Shown piece by piece: positions 5,406-14,958 of a stretch of 17,225 bases of DNA. Origin of the DNA: a virus; UHGV virus genome UHGV-1699724, one strand, 5' to 3'. The notes beneath the pieces were generated by a model. It was not told the DNA's origin, made no database searches, and saw nothing but the letters and a program-made list of their open reading frames with translations. The position numbers were made by a program, and so were the translations under genes. Each line of letters opens with the position of its first letter. Positions within the stretch are counted from its first letter, which is position 1.

Positions 5406-7241
5406 TTACCTGCCAAAGCGCGTATAGCCAACATCATGGCTGACATCAAAACCGCTGGATCGCGTTTCCATAACCCGCATACCCGGAGGCGAATTCACAA
5501 AAGAGACCTTGATCTCACCATCAACTTTTGGCGCAGAAGCTTTGTTAATCATGAAGGGATTCGGGCCTGTGGCATCGGAGGCGTTGTTTGACTGAGCCAG
5601 ATCTACCGCCGGATAAGGTGTGTATCCCCGTGCCGGTATTCCCGTCCCATAAGCATCATAAGCACCCGCGCCCCACTGCGCAGAGTTAATGGCATCGACC
5701 GTGTCACCGGAACTGTCGGTAAACCACTCAATAATTGGCTTCAGCTTGTCCCACATATCCTGAAACCACTTAACAACCGGTCCCCAGTTATTGATCACCA
5801 TCCCCAGCGGCGACCAGGCAAAAACCTTCTTAAGAAGTTCCCGGCCAGTCTCAAAATGAGGACCAATGGTTTCCCAGAGCTTCTTGAAATAAGGTCCGAC
5901 AACATCCCAGTTAGTGATAATTAATCCCGCAGCCAGGGCTATCGCCGTCGCAATCATGCCAATCGGCGTCATCGACATGATCCTGCTGACAATGCTGATG
6001 GCACTGCCCACGCCCATCAATCCCAGTTTCAGAATCGCAAGACCGGCAGCAAGCCCGACGACGCCGCGAATAACCCGGGGATTTTCATCCACAAACTTCG
6101 TGAATTTCTCCCCCAACTCCCCCAGCCACTGCGTGATGTTCTTAGCGTCACCAGAAAATGCGCCGCCAATAGCCGCAAGGCCGTTAGTTGCGGTCCCCGT
6201 CATTGCCTCCCACAGGTTGGACAGCGTACCAAGCTGAGCCTGAACACGTTTATTCAGGCTGGCCTGTTTATTCATCTTCTGCTGGATCTGATCGTAGCCA
6301 TCCTTTCCTTTATCGATCAGGGCATTGACCACCTGAAGGGTTTCGGCATCATCACCAAATATTGCCTTAAGTACGCCTGTTCGCTTAACGTCGGTCAGTT
6401 TTCGCAACTTTGCCAGTTGCCTGAACATGTTATCAAGACCGCCAAAACTCCCTTTGCCGTCAGTAAAATCGAGCTGTACCCCGAGTTTCTGGCGAGCCAT
6501 AACTTTATTGACGTCCCTGATTTTCTTAACGCTTAATCCGGACTGGATAACTTTTCGCAGGGCATTACCTGCCGACTCCCCGTTCATCCCCATCTGATCC
6601 ATCATGACGCTGATGGGGGCAAGGCTCTGTGCAGCCTGAAGACCGTCCTTGTTCACCATCTTCAGAACAGAACTGGTTTTAGTGAAGAAGGACAACATGT
6701 TGGTATCGTCAACGCCCAGATAAAACGCCTTCTGGATAGTGTCGAACAGCCCCATCATGTCTTCTGACGCCGTTCCGGTAGCATCCTGCATTTTTGCGGC
6801 AAACTCAGCAGCCGCTTCCGGTGTTTTTTTCAGTTGTACCGCAAGATATGCAGTCGCTTTACCCACACCGCCAAGAATGTTTTCTGCCGGGATCCCCTGA
6901 CGCACCAGCATCTGCATCATGTTCTGAAAATCAGCCGTTGTACCGGGTAGCTGGTTACCCAGGCCAATAGCCAGTTTATTGATGTCCTGAAAGCTCTTTC
7001 CAACCTCGCCGTTCGCATCCATCATGGCGACTTTCAGCCCGGTGGCGGCGTTTTCCTGATCGGCATAAGATTTCAGGGAAAGCGTCAGACCCGCTGCCAG
7101 TCCGCCCCCAAGCGCCAGCCCACCCTGTGACGCTTCTTCCGCCTGGCGTTTAAATCCCCGGATTTTCTTTTGCATTTTCGACAGCGCGGGAGAAAGCCTG
7201 TCGACACCGGTGATCAACGCCTTAAGCTCAAATTCAGCCAT
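5406..7241 (-). CDS. Tail tape measure protein
   Basis: 611-aa ORF directly after the chaperone pair. Ala/Gly/Leu/Gln-rich helical N-terminal two-thirds and a long hydrophobic segment (VIRGVVGLAAGLAILKLGLMGVGSAISIVSRIMSMTPIGMIATAIALAAGLIITNW) are typical of tape measure proteins. AGGAGA lies 9 nt upstream of the ATG. Confidence 0.85.
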   Translation of the reverse strand: MAEFELKALITGVDRLSPALSKMQKKIRGFKRQAEEASQGGLALGGGLAAGLTLSLKSYADQENAATGLKVAMMDANGEVGKSFQDINKLAIGLGNQLPGTTADFQNMMQMLVRQGIPAENILGGVGKATAYLAVQLKKTPEAAAEFAAKMQDATGTASEDMMGLFDTIQKAFYLGVDDTNMLSFFTKTSSVLKMVNKDGLQAAQSLAPISVMMDQMGMNGESAGNALRKVIQSGLSVKKIRDVNKVMARQKLGVQLDFTDGKGSFGGLDNMFRQLAKLRKLTDVKRTGVLKAIFGDDAETLQVVNALIDKGKDGYDQIQQKMNKQASLNKRVQAQLGTLSNLWEAMTGTATNGLAAIGGAFSGDAKNITQWLGELGEKFTKFVDENPRVIRGVVGLAAGLAILKLGLMGVGSAISIVSRIMSMTPIGMIATAIALAAGLIITNWDVVGPYFKKLWETIGPHFETGRELLKKVFAWSPLGMVINNWGPVVKWFQDMWDKLKPIIEWFTDSSGDTVDAINSAQWGAGAYDAYGTGIPARGYTPYPAVDLAQSNNASDATGPNPFMINKASAPKVDGEIKVSFVNSPPGMRVMETRSSGFDVSHDVGYTRFGR

Positions 7242-7652
7242 GTGTGCGTTTCTCCTGCTCTATCCTGTTTGCCTGACTGACCAGCAAGGGAATTTCACTG
7301 ATCGGCATATTCAGCAATTCGAAGGGATTAATGCGCCAGTAGCTGGCGCAGTCAAAGAAGCGATCAGTGAGGTATTCAGCCGTCAGGCCTGGAGGAAAAA
7401 ACCAGCCACAAGCCACGCCGCTGCATTCAGGTCTGCCGGAGACATCTGGTCGACAGAGCTTTGCGGCACTTTCGCCAGCCGCACAATGTATTTCGACACC
7501 ACATGCGCCAGAAGTCTGACGGACTCATCCTGATTCATCTGGTAAGGATACCCCAGCTCGCGGACATCCTTCCCGGTGGGTTCATCAAACTCCAGTACGG
7601 AGAGTGTCTCACCATGAGCGATAATCGGTTTCTTTAACTCAAGCTCTTTCAT
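7234..7652 (-). CDS. Tail assembly chaperone, predicted -1 frameshift fusion product (G-T-like, about 139 aa)
   Basis: The -1 frame is open from the slippery site to a TGA at 7234-7236, which overlaps the tape measure start. Fusion would read ...WLVAGFF then PPGLTAEYLTDRFFDCASYWRINPFELLNMPISEIPLLVSQANRIEQEKRTHG. The track's 60-aa ORF 7234..7416 is this extension called with an internal GTG start. Confidence 0.55.
7383..7652 (-). CDS. Tail assembly chaperone (Mu gp41 / lambda gpG-like), frame-0 product
   Basis: 89-aa acidic ORF between the tail tube and tape measure genes, with a TAATG overlap to the tube gene. This is the canonical position of the frameshifting chaperone. Confidence 0.75.
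   Translation of the reverse strand: MKELELKKPIIAHGETLSVLEFDEPTGKDVRELGYPYQMNQDESVRLLAHVVSKYIVRLAKVPQSSVDQMSPADLNAAAWLVAGFFLQA
7395..7401 (-). promoter_or_regulatory. Candidate -1 programmed ribosomal frameshift slippery heptamer T_TTT_TTC
   Basis: Plus strand GAAAAAA at 7395-7401 is TTTTTTC on the coding strand, in the X_XXY_YYZ register of the chaperone frame (GGT TTT TTC), 6 codons before its stop. Confidence 0.55.
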
Positions 7653-8008
7653 TACTGGTAATCCCCTTCTTCACCGTGGAACTCAAGATCAACCGTGCCT
7701 TCTTCGGCATTATGGTTCGCTTCTCCGTGCAGCCAGGCGGACGACAGTACATAGACCTGACCGTTCGCCAGCTCGGCAGTGATGGTCATCTCATCAGACG
7801 AGGTGATTTTGCTTACCGGAAAATTCTTCGGCACCTTGAAGGTCCCTTTGACATAAGGCGCACGGTGAGTTTCCTTGCGGTCCACTGAACCGTCCAGGCC
7901 GATGATGTCATCATTGACCGTCCTGTTCATGGGCACCTCAATGCCGCCGGTCAGCGATAGCTGCTGACCGTCAATTTTGAAATAACAGGTTCCCCCGATA
8001 CGGGCCAT
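7652..8008 (-). CDS. Tail tube protein (Mu M / gp40-like)
   Basis: 118-aa ORF directly after the sheath gene (1-nt stop/start overlap at 8008), with GAGGAG upstream. Size and position are as expected for a myovirus tube protein. Confidence 0.8.
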   Translation of the reverse strand: MARIGGTCYFKIDGQQLSLTGGIEVPMNRTVNDDIIGLDGSVDRKETHRAPYVKGTFKVPKNFPVSKITSSDEMTITAELANGQVYVLSSAWLHGEANHNAEEGTVDLEFHGEEGDYQ

Positions 8009-9504
8009 TATGCAGACTCCTCTGAATACTGAAGACGGAACTGGTTAACCACGGCAAAGACACGCAACTGGTTAACATAGTCAGGCGGGAACAGCGTGTT
8101 CAGACGGTTCGGATCGCTGGCATCACGCTCCACAACCAGGTACTGCTTAAACAGTTCGTAGTTTTCCACGATCCCCGCACGCTCAAGCTGACGGTAGGTT
8201 GCCAGCAGTTCCCCTTTGATCACCGCCGGGGTGACAATCGCCTGACCGGGACCAAAGCGGGTACCGTCACTGGCAAGCTTGTGACGCCCGTACTTACTGG
8301 TAATGACGGATTTCAGTTTGCGCAGTACATACGCGCTGGTATGCAGCGTCTCGCTGTCGAGGTAGCTGTTATCCGCAACACCGTAAGCGTTTTTCCTGTA
8401 CGTGGTGACATCACGCTGAATGCGCAGCACCCCGCTTTCGACATACGCCGTTGCCACGCCATGAGACAGCAGGGTCTGTTGTTCGGTCATCGTGAACCGT
8501 TTCCCCTTCGGCGCAGGCAGCATACCCACCAGCTCACCGGTCTGCGTGGGACGTGCCGGATCGTTGCGAATAAACACCGCTGCGCGGGCGGTACGGCTTG
8601 CCGCCAGCTCGTCGGCAGGCGTCTGGGTCTCTTTTTCGTATCCCGCCAGGGTAATGTGCTGCTGGTTAAACTGGTCACCTGCGGTCACCAGTTCTGACAG
8701 CGTGCCGATCTTTGCCGTATACACATGACCATACAGCTGACGCGCATAGCTCCAGCGACCGCTGGTATCGTTCATCTCTGTCACCAGCGTGTTAACGGAG
8801 GCCGTGTCGTTGAACGGCAGGCCAATATAATCAAACGGCTCATCCGCCATTGCAGTCACCGCGCCGGTGAGAACCGGAGCGCCCGTTCCGGCGCTCCCCG
8901 TCGCCACAGCAATCTGTACGCCCGCTGGCAGCACTTCGCCCCCACCAAAGCCGTAGTAATTGAGGCTGACAGGAATTTCATTCCCGCAAAGCCCCTTATG
9001 ACGCGCGGTCAGCGTGACCACGCCTGCCGAAGATGAGGCCGTAAACGGCAGGGCCGGAACGGCATTAATGGCATCTTTGATACTGCCGGCAATCGTCGTG
9101 ACGTTATCGCCGTTGGTCACCGGTGCCTGCACGCGGGTACGTCCCACATACACATTCACCGTGCCGGTTTCGGTTGCCGCCCCGGTCACCGTCAGCGTAA
9201 CCGTTGCCGCCGCGCCTGTGGCTTCCGGAACGGCAATCACATACAGCTCGCCAAACGGGTCAGTCTGGCGATAAGCCTCGACCATACGCGCCAGCTGACT
9301 TCCCGCACCACAAATCTGGCGTGCATAGTCTGCCGACGGCATCAGCACCAGACTGTTGGCAACAATCTCTGCACCGTTATTGGCATGACCAATCAGCAGC
9401 GATGCTCCGCTGTCCTGTGCAGTATTCGCCGCCGAGTTATCCATTTCCGCATAAAACAACGGAACCAGCGTATTCGACGGAATGGTGTTAAAGCTTATCG
9501 TCAT
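8008..9504 (-). CDS. Contractile tail sheath protein (Mu L / gp39-like)
   Basis: 498-aa ORF; N-terminus MTISFNTIPSNTLVPLFYAEMDNS... resembles Mu-type sheath proteins as I recall them. Followed by tube, chaperone and tape measure in canonical order. Confidence 0.85.
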   Translation of the reverse strand: MTISFNTIPSNTLVPLFYAEMDNSAANTAQDSGASLLIGHANNGAEIVANSLVLMPSADYARQICGAGSQLARMVEAYRQTDPFGELYVIAVPEATGAAATVTLTVTGAATETGTVNVYVGRTRVQAPVTNGDNVTTIAGSIKDAINAVPALPFTASSSAGVVTLTARHKGLCGNEIPVSLNYYGFGGGEVLPAGVQIAVATGSAGTGAPVLTGAVTAMADEPFDYIGLPFNDTASVNTLVTEMNDTSGRWSYARQLYGHVYTAKIGTLSELVTAGDQFNQQHITLAGYEKETQTPADELAASRTARAAVFIRNDPARPTQTGELVGMLPAPKGKRFTMTEQQTLLSHGVATAYVESGVLRIQRDVTTYRKNAYGVADNSYLDSETLHTSAYVLRKLKSVITSKYGRHKLASDGTRFGPGQAIVTPAVIKGELLATYRQLERAGIVENYELFKQYLVVERDASDPNRLNTLFPPDYVNQLRVFAVVNQFRLQYSEESA

Positions 9505-9658
9505 CGGTATTCACCTTTTTATTCACGCGCCGGATATCACCCGCTGCTTCACGGCGCAGCCAGTAGTTGTTCTCGTCAACATTTCGCCCTTCGGCGGGCA
9601 AAAGGTCGCCGCGGGCAGGGTCAGGCACTGACCGCCCTTTAACAGGTTTGACAAACAT
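9488..9658 (-). CDS. Small conserved phage protein (Mu gp38-like / DUF2635-like), 56 aa; not in the ORF track
   Basis: Hand translation of the 160-nt gap gives MFVKPVKGRSVPDPARGDLLPAEGRNVDENNYWLRREAAGDIRRVNKKVNTDDDKL. GAGGA lies 5 nt upstream of the ATG at 9658, and the stop (TAA, 9488-9490) overlaps the sheath start by 17 nt. Sequence and position between the gp37-like and sheath genes match Mu gp38 from memory. Missed by the track because it is under 60 aa. Confidence 0.55.
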   Translation of the reverse strand: MFVKPVKGRSVPDPARGDLLPAEGRNVDENNYWLRREAAGDIRRVNKKVNTDDDKL

Positions 9659-9666
9659 GAGGATCC

Positions 9667-10227
9667 TCAGGAAGGAAGGGTTATTTCGGTGTGATGTTCG
9701 ATATCGCCGTCAGGCCCGTTACCGGGCTCGAGATAATCAACATCAATCGCCAGCGTTTGCAGTTCATCCAGACTGTTCAGATCATCCTGCTGGCGGGTAT
9801 CGTCTTCAGTCAGCTCGCTGATGACCGAAAAATCGAACTGATAAATCAGCTCATGACGATTCAGATCCAGCAGCGTGCCGCCGTCATAGGTAATCGGGTT
9901 ACCGCACGCCTCCGGGTTCCAGCCCAGCAGAGCCTTAAAGAGCATCTGCCGGACATCGTCCACCACATCATACGAGGCAAACTGACCGCGCTCATCACGC
10001 CCGTTACTCAGTATGACAACCACGGAGAAACCCTCTTTCAGCTCCTGCCAGTAGTCGGTCTGGCTTTTGTTTTCTCCCGGAGAATCATCACCCGGTACAA
10101 CATATGCCGCCGGGAGTTTCAGCTTTCCGACCTCCGGCAGATTTTTGAACTGGGCCGCGCCTGCAACCCGGTTTTCAAAATACGGGCAGCGGGCACGCAG
10201 CGCAGCAATAACAGGCGTCAGTTTCAT
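9667..10227 (-). CDS. Tail-proximal structural protein, putative tail terminator/completion protein (Mu gp37 / DUF1834-like)
   Basis: 186-aa ORF with ATGA overlap to the upstream gene at 10224-10227; sits between the head-tail joining genes and the sheath. The family assignment is from memory and is tentative. Confidence 0.45.
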   Translation of the reverse strand: MKLTPVIAALRARCPYFENRVAGAAQFKNLPEVGKLKLPAAYVVPGDDSPGENKSQTDYWQELKEGFSVVVILSNGRDERGQFASYDVVDDVRQMLFKALLGWNPEACGNPITYDGGTLLDLNRHELIYQFDFSVISELTEDDTRQQDDLNSLDELQTLAIDVDYLEPGNGPDGDIEHHTEITLPS

Positions 10228-11437: not shown

Positions 11438-11638
11438 TCAGCCCTCTTTACTGGTCGTGGCTTTTTTCTCTTTTGTTGCTTTACTGCTTTTTGCACTGGT
11501 TCCGCGCTCTGCTAACCCGGTCTGAAGTGCAATCTCCTGCACCCGGGCAGGAAGCGCCCCGTCGTCATACTCACCGGCCCGAATGACCTCAACACGCATA
11601 CCGTCCGGTGACCATTTCAGATCTTGTTTCAGGATCAT
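11438..11638 (-). CDS. Small hypothetical protein (66 aa, Lys/Ser/Thr-rich C-terminal tail)
   Basis: ORF MILKQDLKWSPDGMRVEVIRAGEYDDGALPARVQEIALQTGLAERGTSAKSSKATKEKKATTSKEG. Its stop is 2 nt before the connector start and it lies between the capsid and connector genes. No family recognised. Confidence 0.45.
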   Translation of the reverse strand: MILKQDLKWSPDGMRVEVIRAGEYDDGALPARVQEIALQTGLAERGTSAKSSKATKEKKATTSKEG

Positions 11639-13557: not shown

Positions 13558-14776
13558 TGGCGTTATCCTTCTGCTTACCGGCTTTACTGCCATCGGAGGG
13601 TTTCGTGGTCATGTTCATCGGTGTGAGATAGACATCACCACCGGGACGCGGATTCATATCTTCCAGGTCGCGGCAGTCATTGGGAGAGTAAATTCCCCAA
13701 TTGATCCCGGTAGCGTAGGCTTCAAAACGGGACTTCATATCCCCGCGCAGTAAGGCCCCGGCGTTAAATTTGGCGTAATAAACGCCCTGCTTACTTTTTC
13801 GTACCAGTCCGGTGTTGATCCGCTGCTCAATGCGGGTCAGATACGGCACCAGTGAATAGTTGATAAATCCCAGCCCCAGCTCTTCGATATTGTTGAAGGT
13901 GGCGCGATCGGTGTTCTGCACCATGTGCAATGGCACCCGGAACAGACGACAGATTTCTTCAAGCTGAAACTTGCGGGTTTCCAGGAACTGGCTGTCCTCG
14001 GCGTTCAGCGCCATCGACTTCCAGTCCAGCCCCATCTCAAGGATCATCGGGCGGTGAGCATTGCCAAGCCCGGTGTGACGCTCCTCAAAATCTTTCTTCA
14101 GGCGCTCATAAGCCTGATCTGACAGCGTCTGCTCTGTACGCAACACACCCGACGTCACCGCGCCATTGCTGAACAGTCTGGCCCCGTGCTCTTCGGTCGC
14201 TGCCGCCAGCGATATTGCCTCGCGGGCATAGGCGATGGGATTCAGCCCCACCAGTCCGTCCAGCGTCAGCGTGCGCACATGCCAGATATCTTCCTGGCTC
14301 AGTACATCCGTGGAGCCATCCGGGAATGTGACCTGATAGACCGGCTCCCAGCTACTGTTAAGCTTCGGTACCACACAGCCGGGATCGACGGGCAGCAGTT
14401 CAGCCACTTCGCCAAATGCTTTCACTTTGTAGGCGTAAAAGTTTCCCCGCAGGCACAGACAGGTGACCACCAGCTCCCAGAACTCCTGCGGCGTCATATA
14501 GCCATTGGGATGCGTGGAGATCAGCTTATGCAGACGTTCGCCAGTGGCTCTCTGCTTCAGGCTGCCGTTCAGGTGATACAGGTTGCAGGGCAACATCCCG
14601 ACCGACTCCGCCAGCACCCTGACACAGGAAAAAACCGCCGTCAGTCGCATGGCCCGCTGGCTGCTGATCTGCTTTCCGGTATAGGTGTCGTAGGACAACC
14701 CGATAGCATCCGCCAGCTCTGCTGGCGTGGTCACCGGTGCGTCACTTTTTCGTTGAAATAATCCCGAAAAGAACAC
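13535..14776 (-). CDS. Portal protein (HK97 family)
   Basis: 413-aa ORF placed after the large terminase and before the protease. GTG start with GGAGGT 5 nt upstream; the start overlaps the stop of the small membrane ORF (TAGTG). Confidence 0.85.
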   Translation of the reverse strand: MFFSGLFQRKSDAPVTTPAELADAIGLSYDTYTGKQISSQRAMRLTAVFSCVRVLAESVGMLPCNLYHLNGSLKQRATGERLHKLISTHPNGYMTPQEFWELVVTCLCLRGNFYAYKVKAFGEVAELLPVDPGCVVPKLNSSWEPVYQVTFPDGSTDVLSQEDIWHVRTLTLDGLVGLNPIAYAREAISLAAATEEHGARLFSNGAVTSGVLRTEQTLSDQAYERLKKDFEERHTGLGNAHRPMILEMGLDWKSMALNAEDSQFLETRKFQLEEICRLFRVPLHMVQNTDRATFNNIEELGLGFINYSLVPYLTRIEQRINTGLVRKSKQGVYYAKFNAGALLRGDMKSRFEAYATGINWGIYSPNDCRDLEDMNPRPGGDVYLTPMNMTTKPSDGSKAGKQKDNANADETTS

Positions 14777-14958
14777 TATTTACCTCCGCCGACAGACGAC
14801 TGTGTACGGTCGAGATATCGCGCCACCAGCCACGACCAGAACAGGCACAACGCCCCGGCAACAACAAACCCCGCCGGGGGATAAATCAGCCAGGCACCAT
14901 ACGCCAGCAAAAGCACCCCCAGCACGCCCACCAGAGGCGCGAGAATCAGCATGATCAT
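14776..14958 (-). CDS. Small hydrophobic protein, two predicted transmembrane helices (60 aa; possibly e14 YmfR-like)
   Basis: [60 protein letters not shown] has two hydrophobic stretches separated by PPAG. GAGGT lies upstream of the ATG, 11 nt after the terminase stop, and the stop overlaps the portal start. E. coli e14 carries a 60-aa ORF (ymfR) between its terminase and portal remnants; I recall the position, not the sequence. Confidence 0.55.

What the first reader, a model, noticed from the sequence alone, without database searches (positions are those of the whole stretch)
9488..9658. Unlisted 56-aa gene (Mu gp38-like) in the apparent gap before the sheath gene
The 160-nt 'intergenic' region between the gp37-like and sheath genes encodes MFVKPVKGRSVPDPARGDLLPAEGRNVDENNYWLRREAAGDIRRVNKKVNTDDDKL, with GAGGA 5 nt upstream of its ATG and a stop overlapping the sheath start. 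It falls below the 60-aa cutoff of the ORF track. Its position and sequence resemble the small protein encoded between K and L in Mu-like tail modules, whose function is, as far as I know, uncharacterised.
Basis: partly seen in the sequence, partly recalled or inferred. Interest (0 to 1): 0.45.

Follow-up and report, generated by a model that had tools for sequence, protein, structure and literature searches.

The report
Known small tail gene (DUF2635/Mu gp38)
The "gap" before the tail-sheath gene holds a real, already catalogued 56-residue phage gene (SfV orf10, a relative of Mu gp38, Pfam DUF2635) whose role is still untested but which looks like a small docking protein of Mu-type contractile tails.

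Summary
ORF 9488-9658 (minus strand) encodes the quoted 56 aa. GAGGA lies 5 nt upstream of its ATG, and the ORF overlaps the sheath gene by 17 nt.

It is not new. It is 100% identical to SfV orf10, which was annotated "similar to phage Mu GP38". It matches Pfam DUF2635 (E 1e-16), and RefSeq labels it in about 1,078 of 5,426 complete E. coli genomes. It was "unlisted" only because of the 60-aa ORF cutoff.

It is a functional gene:
- dN/dS is 0.06-0.30.
- The order terminator, DUF2635, sheath holds in 18 of the 19 stand-alone loci examined.
- Headless Pseudomonas tailocin clusters keep it.
- Published tailocin proteomics detect the ortholog at 93% coverage.

Function is unproven. Leads found here:
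- The 46-aa core is as conserved as the sheath and more conserved than the terminator or tube.
- The same domain forms the N-terminus of tail-fibre proteins in some prophages.
- Mu gp38 was not resolved in 3.3-3.5 Å virion maps.

Best guess: a tail-binding (probably sheath-binding) adaptor or assembly protein. Novelty: already known. Interest: low to moderate.

The parts
9488..9658 (-). Complete CDS of the 56-aa DUF2635 protein (identical to SfV orf10; Mu gp38 orthologue), stop codon included
9521..9658 (-). Codons 1-46: the conserved globular core (short beta strands, one helix at residues 31-38, final strand at 42-45). Carries the family motif M.VKP..G..V.DP.RG..LP.EGR.V....YW.RR..GD
   Evidence: Pfam match covers residues 3-47. 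AF2 pLDDT is above 90 over roughly residues 1-40, mean 84. Conserved columns are. dN/dS is 0.06-0.30.
9491..9520 (-). Codons 47-56: charged C-terminal tail (NKKVNTDDDKL region), predicted disordered. Its length and sequence vary freely across the family. It overlaps the sheath gene's start.
   Evidence: pLDDT below 50 for residues 48-56; alignments
9664..9668 (-). Shine-Dalgarno GAGGA, 5 nt upstream of the ATG, overlapping the TGA stop (9667-9669) of the tail terminator gene. This is a translational-coupling layout.
   Evidence: read directly
9667..10227 (-). Upstream neighbour: tail terminator gene (186 aa; functional equivalent of Mu gp37/K)
   Evidence: PF23840 Phage_tail_terminator, E 3.7e-26
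8008..9504 (-). Downstream neighbour: Mu-type tail sheath gene (498 aa). Its first 17 nt overlap the end of the DUF2635 CDS, and its AAGGTG (9512-9517) lies inside that CDS.
   Evidence: Pfam sheath domains; PDB 9khy sheath, E 3.7e-80; sequence

Best explanation
Shown: the ORF is a genuine protein-coding gene under purifying selection. It is the SfV orf10 / Mu gp38 orthologue and a member of DUF2635. It is part of the Mu-type contractile-tail module rather than the head or head-joining genes. Its tailocin orthologue is translated and abundant. Inferred mechanism: the gene is positioned for translational coupling between the terminator and sheath genes. Its 46-residue alpha/beta core acts as a protein-docking module that recognises a conserved site on the Mu-type tail, most likely on the sheath protein. 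A short, variable, disordered tail hangs off the core. As a stand-alone protein it would act while the sheath polymerises and is capped, and it may stay only loosely or sub-stoichiometrically attached afterwards. In some phages the same module has been placed at the N-terminus of accessory tail fibres, where it would tether them to the particle. Neither the binding partner nor retention in the finished particle has been shown.
For: Gene reality: Pfam and PHROG matches and dN/dS of 0.06-0.30. There are 2,040 clusters at 50% identity with E<=1e-3. Tail-intrinsic role: the order terminator, DUF2635, sheath, tube, chaperone, tape measure is kept in Mu, SfV, ST64B, phiP27, phiNP, PG1, BZS1, PBb002, EPP-1, YeP2, AH07, 689R6, two Roseomonas prophages and several metagenome contigs, even though their head modules differ. 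The headless R-tailocin cluster of P. fluorescens Q8r1-96 keeps Orf10, a DUF2635 protein (E 6e-22) 60% identical to this one, directly before its sheath gene. The orthogroup is present in all 12 strains with Rp4 clusters (PMC8319346 Table S3). Translation and abundance: in the Pse04 tailocin preparation the orthologue has 93.3% coverage, 69 spectra and NSAF 0.026, against 0.051 for the sheath and 0.018 for the terminator. It is also listed for Pse05 and Pse06. Link to the sheath: in distant phages, core identity to the window protein is 38-51%. That tracks the sheath (37-48%), not the terminator (20-29%) or the tube (20-35%). Docking role: the domain is the N-terminal ~48 aa of long fibre-class proteins. 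P0255 is 756 aa; its residues 295-754 match phrog_4201 'tail fiber protein' at E 1.7e-79, it carries a SASA esterase domain, and it is encoded after the baseplate genes. P0193 is 737 aa. P0167 carries an fn3 domain. P0191 sits next to a Laminin_G_3 protein. The Roseomonas rosea prophage encodes both the stand-alone copy and the fibre-fused copy. Structure: a confident small alpha/beta core plus a disordered tail.
Against: Mu gp38 was not resolved in 3.3-3.5 Å cryo-EM maps of extended and contracted Mu. In those maps the C-terminal hairpin of gp37 caps the last sheath ring (PMC11915804). No PDB chain matches the DUF2635 profile, although the Mu sheath is deposited. A stoichiometric, ordered virion component is therefore unlikely, at least in Mu. 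The tailocin preparation was only a 30% ammonium-sulfate cut containing hundreds of host proteins, and the tail assembly chaperone was abundant in it too. Co-precipitation therefore does not prove particle association. The sheath-rate conservation argument rests on 13 loci that share phylogeny. No interaction was tested. One stand-alone member (L026) lies in a phage-like region with no recognisable sheath gene within 4 kb.
Confidence: 0.5

Rival explanations
1. Pure assembly chaperone. The protein binds unpolymerised sheath (or terminator) subunits in the cytoplasm. It prevents premature or aberrant polymerisation such as polysheath, or it times capping. It is released and is not part of the finished tail, as with the tail assembly chaperone.
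For: gp38 is absent from the Mu virion maps, alongside the chaperone gp41, and from the PDB. The gene sits immediately before, and is coupled to, the most abundant tail protein. The core is conserved at the sheath's rate. It is retained in tailocins. The known chaperone was also abundant in the crude tailocin preparation, so detection there is compatible with a non-structural role.
Against: This does not explain why the same domain is the N-terminal module of fibre-class proteins with esterase, fn3 or lectin-type distal domains. Those proteins are only useful if tethered to a particle. No chaperone of this kind is known for other contractile sheaths (background knowledge).
Confidence: 0.3
2. 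Sheath terminator, as the current Mu GenBank record labels Mu_38. Six copies would cap the last sheath ring at the neck end and lock the extended state.
For: AF083977.1 annotates Mu_38 as 'putative sheath terminator protein'. The gene lies between the terminator and sheath genes. It is retained in tailocins.
Against: [quoted passage not shown] The GenBank label carries no reference.
Confidence: 0.1
3. The ORF matters mainly as a translational-coupling leader that delivers ribosomes to the sheath start, and the peptide itself is dispensable. Alternatively, the L9-N-like basic domain binds RNA to regulate late translation.
Against: Strong purifying selection acts on the amino-acid sequence. Sixteen columns are invariant among close relatives, and a conserved motif persists across 2,040 clusters. 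The overlap geometry is not conserved: 17 nt here, 4 nt in Mu, none in PBb002. The protein accumulates to high level. The fibre fusions do not fit this reading. The fold hits are not significant.
Confidence: 0.04

Closest known systems
SfV orf10 (AAL89419.1) and its copies in SfI, SfII, SfIV and E. coli SfV-like prophages
   Same: 100% identical over 56 aa, with the same neighbours and the same 17-nt overlap with the sheath gene
   Different: Nothing. This is the same gene in an E. coli prophage copy. The region is 100% identical to NZ_LR778151.1.
Phage Mu gp38 (Mu_38, AAF01116.1) and the FluMu gp38 family: Pfam PF10948 DUF2635, PHROG 208
   Same: Same family. The Pfam score is 60.9 bits. Identity to Mu gp38 is 42% over residues 3-54. 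Both sit between the terminator (K/gp37) and sheath (L/gp39) genes. Both have a short variable tail after a ~46-aa core.
   Different: Mu gp38 is 67 aa with a longer tail. It overlaps gp37 by 14 nt and the sheath gene by 4 nt. The flanking terminator is only about 29% identical. Function has not been tested in either phage.
Orf10 / PFL_1215 / OG0000019 of SfV-like (Rp4) Pseudomonas R-tailocins
   Same: DUF2635 member, 60% identical over the core, immediately upstream of the sheath gene. It has been detected by MS.
   Different: It is encoded in a domesticated, headless killing particle rather than a phage. Its N-terminus carries 4 extra residues.
N-terminal attachment domains of phage tail fibres (here: DUF2635-fused fibres P0255, P0193, P0167, P0191)
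   Same: The same Pfam domain at 49-58 bits, occupying the N-terminal position where fibres carry their particle-attachment domain
   Different: The window protein has no fibre shaft or distal domain, only a 10-residue tail. Its gene lies at the terminator-sheath junction, not in the fibre cluster.
Tail assembly chaperones (lambda gpG/GT, Mu gp41; window 7383-7652)
   Same: Small, abundant, tail-module-encoded proteins that were not resolved in the Mu virion
   Different: No sequence or Pfam relationship. No frameshift product. The chaperone acts on the tape measure and tube, not the sheath.

Membership tests
Pfam PF10948 (DUF2635) / PHROG 208 | Profile match above the curated gathering score, covering the whole domain | tested here: met
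   60.9 bits against a cutoff of 26.6; residues 3-47 match profile positions 1-45 of 46. phrog_208 gives E 3.6e-26.
Pfam PF10948 (DUF2635) / PHROG 208 | Family motif residues (P5, D13-P14, L20-P21, G24-R25, V27, Y32-W33, R35-R36, G40-D41) | tested here: met
   All are present in the window protein. They are invariant or nearly invariant in the 28-sequence alignment, and mostly kept in the 38-sequence distant alignment.
Mu gp38 orthologue (positional and sequence) | Detectable sequence similarity to Mu gp38 | tested here: met
   tblastn hit to AF083977 21498-21653, 42.3% identity, E 9e-7. The feature under the match is Mu_38.
Mu gp38 orthologue (positional and sequence) | Encoded between the tail terminator and a Mu-type sheath gene, followed by tube, chaperone and tape measure genes | tested here: met
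   Window order: 9667-10227 terminator, 9488-9658, 8008-9504 sheath, 7652-8008 tube, 7383-7652 chaperone, 5406-7241 tape measure. The order is the same in 18 of the 19 stand-alone loci examined. The exception is L026.
Sheath terminator (functional class; label on Mu_38 in AF083977.1) | Sits on the last sheath ring of the assembled tail and caps it | not testable with these tools
   Published Mu cryo-EM assigns this contact to the gp37 C-terminal hairpin and could not resolve gp38 (PMC11915804). No PDB chain matches the family. I do not file it here.
Virion or tailocin structural protein | Present in purified particles | tested here: inconclusive
   The orthologue is abundant in 30% ammonium-sulfate tailocin preparations (93% coverage). 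Those preparations are crude and also contain the assembly chaperone. It was not seen in the Mu structure.
Tail-fibre N-terminal anchor domain | The domain is followed by a fibre shaft and a distal receptor-binding or enzymatic domain | tested here: not met
   The window protein ends 10 residues after the domain. Only some homologues (P0255, P0193, P0167, P0191) have the fibre part.

The most novel reading that the evidence does not exclude
DUF2635 is a universal 'socket-binding' adaptor of Mu-type contractile tails. The stand-alone protein binds a conserved site on the sheath (or the sheath-terminator junction) in many copies. Phages exploit the same site by fusing the 46-aa module to the N-terminus of accessory fibres and esterases. 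That would make it a previously unrecognised attachment system for extra receptor-binding proteins on Mu-like phages and Rp4 tailocins.
Probability: 0.3. Interest if true: 0.5.

Novelty: already known. Interest (0 to 1): 0.25.

Why it matters
The gene itself is not news. It has been annotated in SfV since the original record (as orf10, 'similar to phage Mu GP38'), it has a Pfam family, and it is labelled in about a fifth of complete E. coli genomes.

What remains open is its function. It is one of the last unassigned genes in the tail module of phage Mu, a model system. The family is large (about 2,000 clusters at 50% identity). Domesticated Pseudomonas tailocins, which are being developed as precision antibacterials, also keep it.

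If the small domain is a tail-binding socket adaptor, it would offer a 46-residue tag for hanging new receptor-binding or enzymatic domains on Mu-type phages and Rp4 tailocins. If it is instead a sheath chaperone, it would be the first known for a contractile sheath.

Tried and rejected
1. Solved structures. phmmer with the protein and hmmsearch with a 38-sequence profile found nothing in the PDB at E<=10.

2. Fold searches with the confident AF2 model.
- Foldseek against the PDB: best hit YqbF (2hjq), E about 1.
- BFVD: no hit at E<=0.001.
- All are too weak to carry a functional inference. I only say the fold is L9-N/YqbF-N-like.

3. NCBIfam has no model for the protein.

4. Literature.
- 'DUF2635' returns 0 papers and 'Mup38' nothing relevant.
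- The SuMu proteomics paper does not mention the gene.
- Hockett 2015 does not discuss it individually.

- The search for related loci with the alignment failed because no stretch was usable for back-translation.
I used the single genome-contig scan instead.

6. Co-folding. I considered co-folding the protein with the sheath or terminator by concatenation.

7. Rejected readings.
- Chance ORF: ruled out by dN/dS and the profile scores.
- Head-tail joining factor: ruled out by retention in headless tailocins.
- Fusion proteins as assembly artefacts: the same 756-aa protein occurs in an NCBI genome and in an independent run, and a diverged 737-aa relative has the same architecture.

8. Cultured phages (tblastn with a fibre-type N-domain) carry only stand-alone copies.

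Full report
**1. Observation**

The window carries, on its minus strand, the late morphogenesis module of an SfV-like prophage. In order it holds terminase, portal, protease, major capsid, connectors, tail terminator, sheath, tube, chaperone, tape measure and a Mu-type baseplate.

Between the terminator gene (9667-10227) and the sheath gene (8008-9504), the ORF listing reports an ATG-initiated 56-codon ORF at 9488-9658.

Reading the minus strand directly:
- GAGGA lies at 9668-9664, 5 nt before the ATG at 9658-9656.
- That GAGGA overlaps the terminator gene's TGA stop (9669-9667).
- The small ORF's TAA (9490-9488) lies 14 nt past the sheath ATG (9504-9502), giving a 17-nt overlap.
- An AAGGTG for the sheath (9517-9512) sits inside the small ORF.

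Only the overlap needs restating: it is longer than a stop codon touching a start codon.

**2. Identity**

- The protein matches Pfam PF10948 (DUF2635) at 60.9 bits against a gathering score of 26.6, across the whole 46-position model.
- It matches PHROG 208, 'unknown function', at E 3.6e-26.
- It is 100% identical to orf10 of Shigella phage SfV, whose GenBank record already notes 'similar to phage Mu GP38'. It is also identical to the copies in SfI, SfII and SfIV.
- It is 42% identical to Mu gp38.
- A 601-nt query around it is found at 95% identity or better in 1,078 of 5,426 complete E. coli genomes. In the RefSeq records listed it is labelled 'DUF2635 domain-containing protein'.

It was 'unlisted' only because the first-stage ORF track stops at 60 aa. 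The same omission exists in a few public records: phiP27, SfIV and VIT_AJPSC show no annotated feature of their own for this gene.

**3. Is it a functional gene?**

Selection. Across the window, ST64B, EPP-1, phiP27, 689R6, YeP2 and AH07, codons 1-46 give dN/dS of 0.06-0.30, with dS around 1 or higher for all but the window/689R6 pair (dS 0.06).

Family size. A profile search of 1.84 billion representative proteins finds 2,040 clusters at E<=1e-3. They share the motif M.VKP..G..V.DP.RG..LP.EGR.V....YW.RR..DGDV, followed by a low-complexity tail of very variable length.

Synteny. The order terminator, DUF2635, sheath, tube, chaperone, tape measure holds in 18 of the 19 loci with a stand-alone copy that I examined. 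These loci have HK97-type, lambda-type or Mu-type head modules. The gene therefore travels with the Mu-type contractile tail. The exception is L026.

Tailocins. The headless R-tailocin cluster of P. fluorescens Q8r1-96 has no capsid, portal or connector genes. It still starts its structural block with a terminator-like Orf9, then Orf10, then the sheath. Orf10 is a DUF2635 protein (E 6e-22) and is 60% identical to the window protein.

Proteomics. In Carim et al. 2021 (PMC8319346) this orthogroup, OG0000019, is present in all 12 strains that carry an SfV-like Rp4 cluster. Their MudPIT data for the Pse04 tailocin preparation are:

| Protein (Pse04) | Coverage | Spectra | NSAF |
|---|---|---|---|
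| DUF2635 orthologue (Pseudo4_contig_3_1015) | 93.3% | 69 | 0.026 |
| Sheath | 68.1% | 1115 | 0.051 |
| Terminator-like protein | 79.4% | 152 | 0.018 |
| Tube | 56.5% | 40 | 0.008 |

The Pse05 and Pse06 orthologues are also in the proteomics table. I inferred this from occurrence counts, which I validated against genes that are absent from the table. So an orthologue is translated and abundant.

**4. What does it do?**

No experiment addresses this, and four lines of evidence bear on it.

(b) Evolutionary rate. In distant relatives the core keeps 38-51% identity to the window protein. That is like the sheath (37-48%) and unlike the terminator (20-29%) or the tube (20-35%). This points to a conserved partner surface such as the sheath. 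The sample is small and phylogenetically linked.

(c) Domain architecture. A few family members carry the domain as the N-terminal ~48 residues of long proteins.
- P0255 (756 aa) matches phrog_4201 'tail fiber protein' over residues 295-754 (E 1.7e-79) and carries a SASA carbohydrate-esterase domain. It is encoded after the Mu-type baseplate genes and a first fibre.
- P0193 (737 aa) has the same layout.
- P0167 (402 aa, with fn3) lies among neck genes.
- P0191 (171 aa) lies next to a Laminin_G_3 protein.
- After the domain, these proteins have alanine-rich stretches that, from background knowledge, resemble fibre shafts.
- The Roseomonas rosea prophage encodes both a canonical stand-alone copy before its sheath gene and the fibre-fused copy.

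The N-terminus is where fibres carry their particle-attachment domain (background knowledge). This argues that DUF2635 is a docking module for a site on the tail.

(d) Against a stable structural role. The 3.3-3.5 Å cryo-EM study of Mu modelled gp37, gp39 and the other tail proteins, but 'could not resolve' gp35, gp38 and gp41. It shows the gp37 C-terminal hairpin capping the last sheath ring (PMC11915804). The Mu sheath is in the PDB (9khy and related entries), yet no PDB chain matches the DUF2635 profile. The tailocin preparation was a crude 30% ammonium-sulfate cut in which the assembly chaperone was also abundant. Co-precipitation is therefore suggestive only.

**5. Synthesis**

The reading that fits most of the evidence is a tail-binding adaptor, probably sheath-binding. 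It would be made with the sheath through translational coupling and would act during sheath polymerisation and capping. It would stay only loosely or partially attached in phages like Mu. The module has also been reused to tether accessory fibres. I put this at about 0.5.

Rival readings:
- A pure sheath or terminator chaperone that leaves the particle, about 0.3. It fits the Mu structure best but does not explain the fibre fusions.
- The 'sheath terminator' label in the current Mu GenBank record, about 0.1. The Mu structure disfavours it.
- A leader-only or RNA-binding role, under 0.05. Purifying selection, the variable overlap geometry and the fibre fusions all argue against it.

**6. Novelty and interest**

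The feature is already known as a gene and as a family, so the first-stage finding is a correct rediscovery.

The leads assembled here are the retention and MS detection in tailocins, the sheath-like conservation and the fibre-N-terminal fusions. I did not find them discussed in the searchable literature: 'DUF2635' returns no papers. They make a simple knockout or binding experiment worthwhile, but they are inferences.

Interest is low to moderate at 0.25. If the socket-adaptor reading proved true, interest would rise to about 0.5.

Noticed in passing
window 7395-7401 (minus strand), with ORF 7234-7416: The tail assembly chaperone gene (7383-7652) contains a canonical -1 slippery heptamer T TTT TTC in the correct phase (codons GGT TTT TTC), 9 nt before its stop. 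The -1 frame stays open to 7234. This looks like a G/GT-type programmed frameshift product of roughly 140 aa. Phage 689R6 annotates the overlapping ORF separately.
   Followed up: partly
L004 (phiP27 NC_003356) 2501-2662; SfIV KC814930/NC_022749 and VIT_AJPSC OR799564 at 7619-7786: The same DUF2635 gene is intact but has no CDS feature of its own in these public phage records. At most the overlapping sheath gene appears under the match. The 'gap before the sheath gene' is a recurring annotation omission.
   Followed up: partly
L016 (Roseomonas rosea DSM 14916, NZ_FQZF01000018.1) 5448-5624 and 16361-18631: One prophage encodes two DUF2635 domains. One is a 58-aa stand-alone copy before the sheath gene, with a degraded YW.RR motif (HWTRIV). 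The other is the N-terminus of a 756-aa esterase-type tail fibre, which keeps the consensus motif. The related R. xinghualingensis locus (L017) showed only the stand-alone copy, but that locus runs to the end of its contig.
   Followed up: partly
L026 4001-4171 (JGI 3300025735 contig, 248 kb): A 56-aa DUF2635 gene sits in a run of small phage-like genes of unknown function. No recognisable sheath, tube or terminator gene lies within 4 kb. It is the only non-canonical stand-alone context seen.
   Followed up: partly
window 9667-10227; RefSeq NC_000929 (Mu gp37) and NC_013594 (D108 gp37): PHROG 209 is labelled 'portal protein', and RefSeq calls Mu and D108 gp37 'portal protein'. However, the protein matches Pfam Phage_tail_terminator (E 3.7e-26), and the Mu structure shows gp37 is the tail terminator. 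This looks like a propagating mis-annotation.
   Followed up: partly
PMC8319346 Tables S2-S4 (Pse04: Pseudo4_contig_3_1005 and _1018): The unrelated Rp3 (VP882/phiHAP-1-like) tailocin cluster also has a small gene of about 210 nt (OG0000010) directly upstream of its sheath gene. It was not detected by MS. The Rp4 chaperone-like protein (OG0000022) was as abundant by NSAF (0.054) as the sheath, which is unexpected for a protein thought to be absent from finished tails.
   Followed up: no
window 11438-11638 and 14776-14958 (minus strand): Two more small ORFs (66 aa and 60 aa) fill inter-gene spaces, one after the capsid gene and one between the terminase and portal genes. Neither has a Pfam match. 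The first corresponds in position and size to ST64B sb7, a 'hypothetical protein'.
   Followed up: partly
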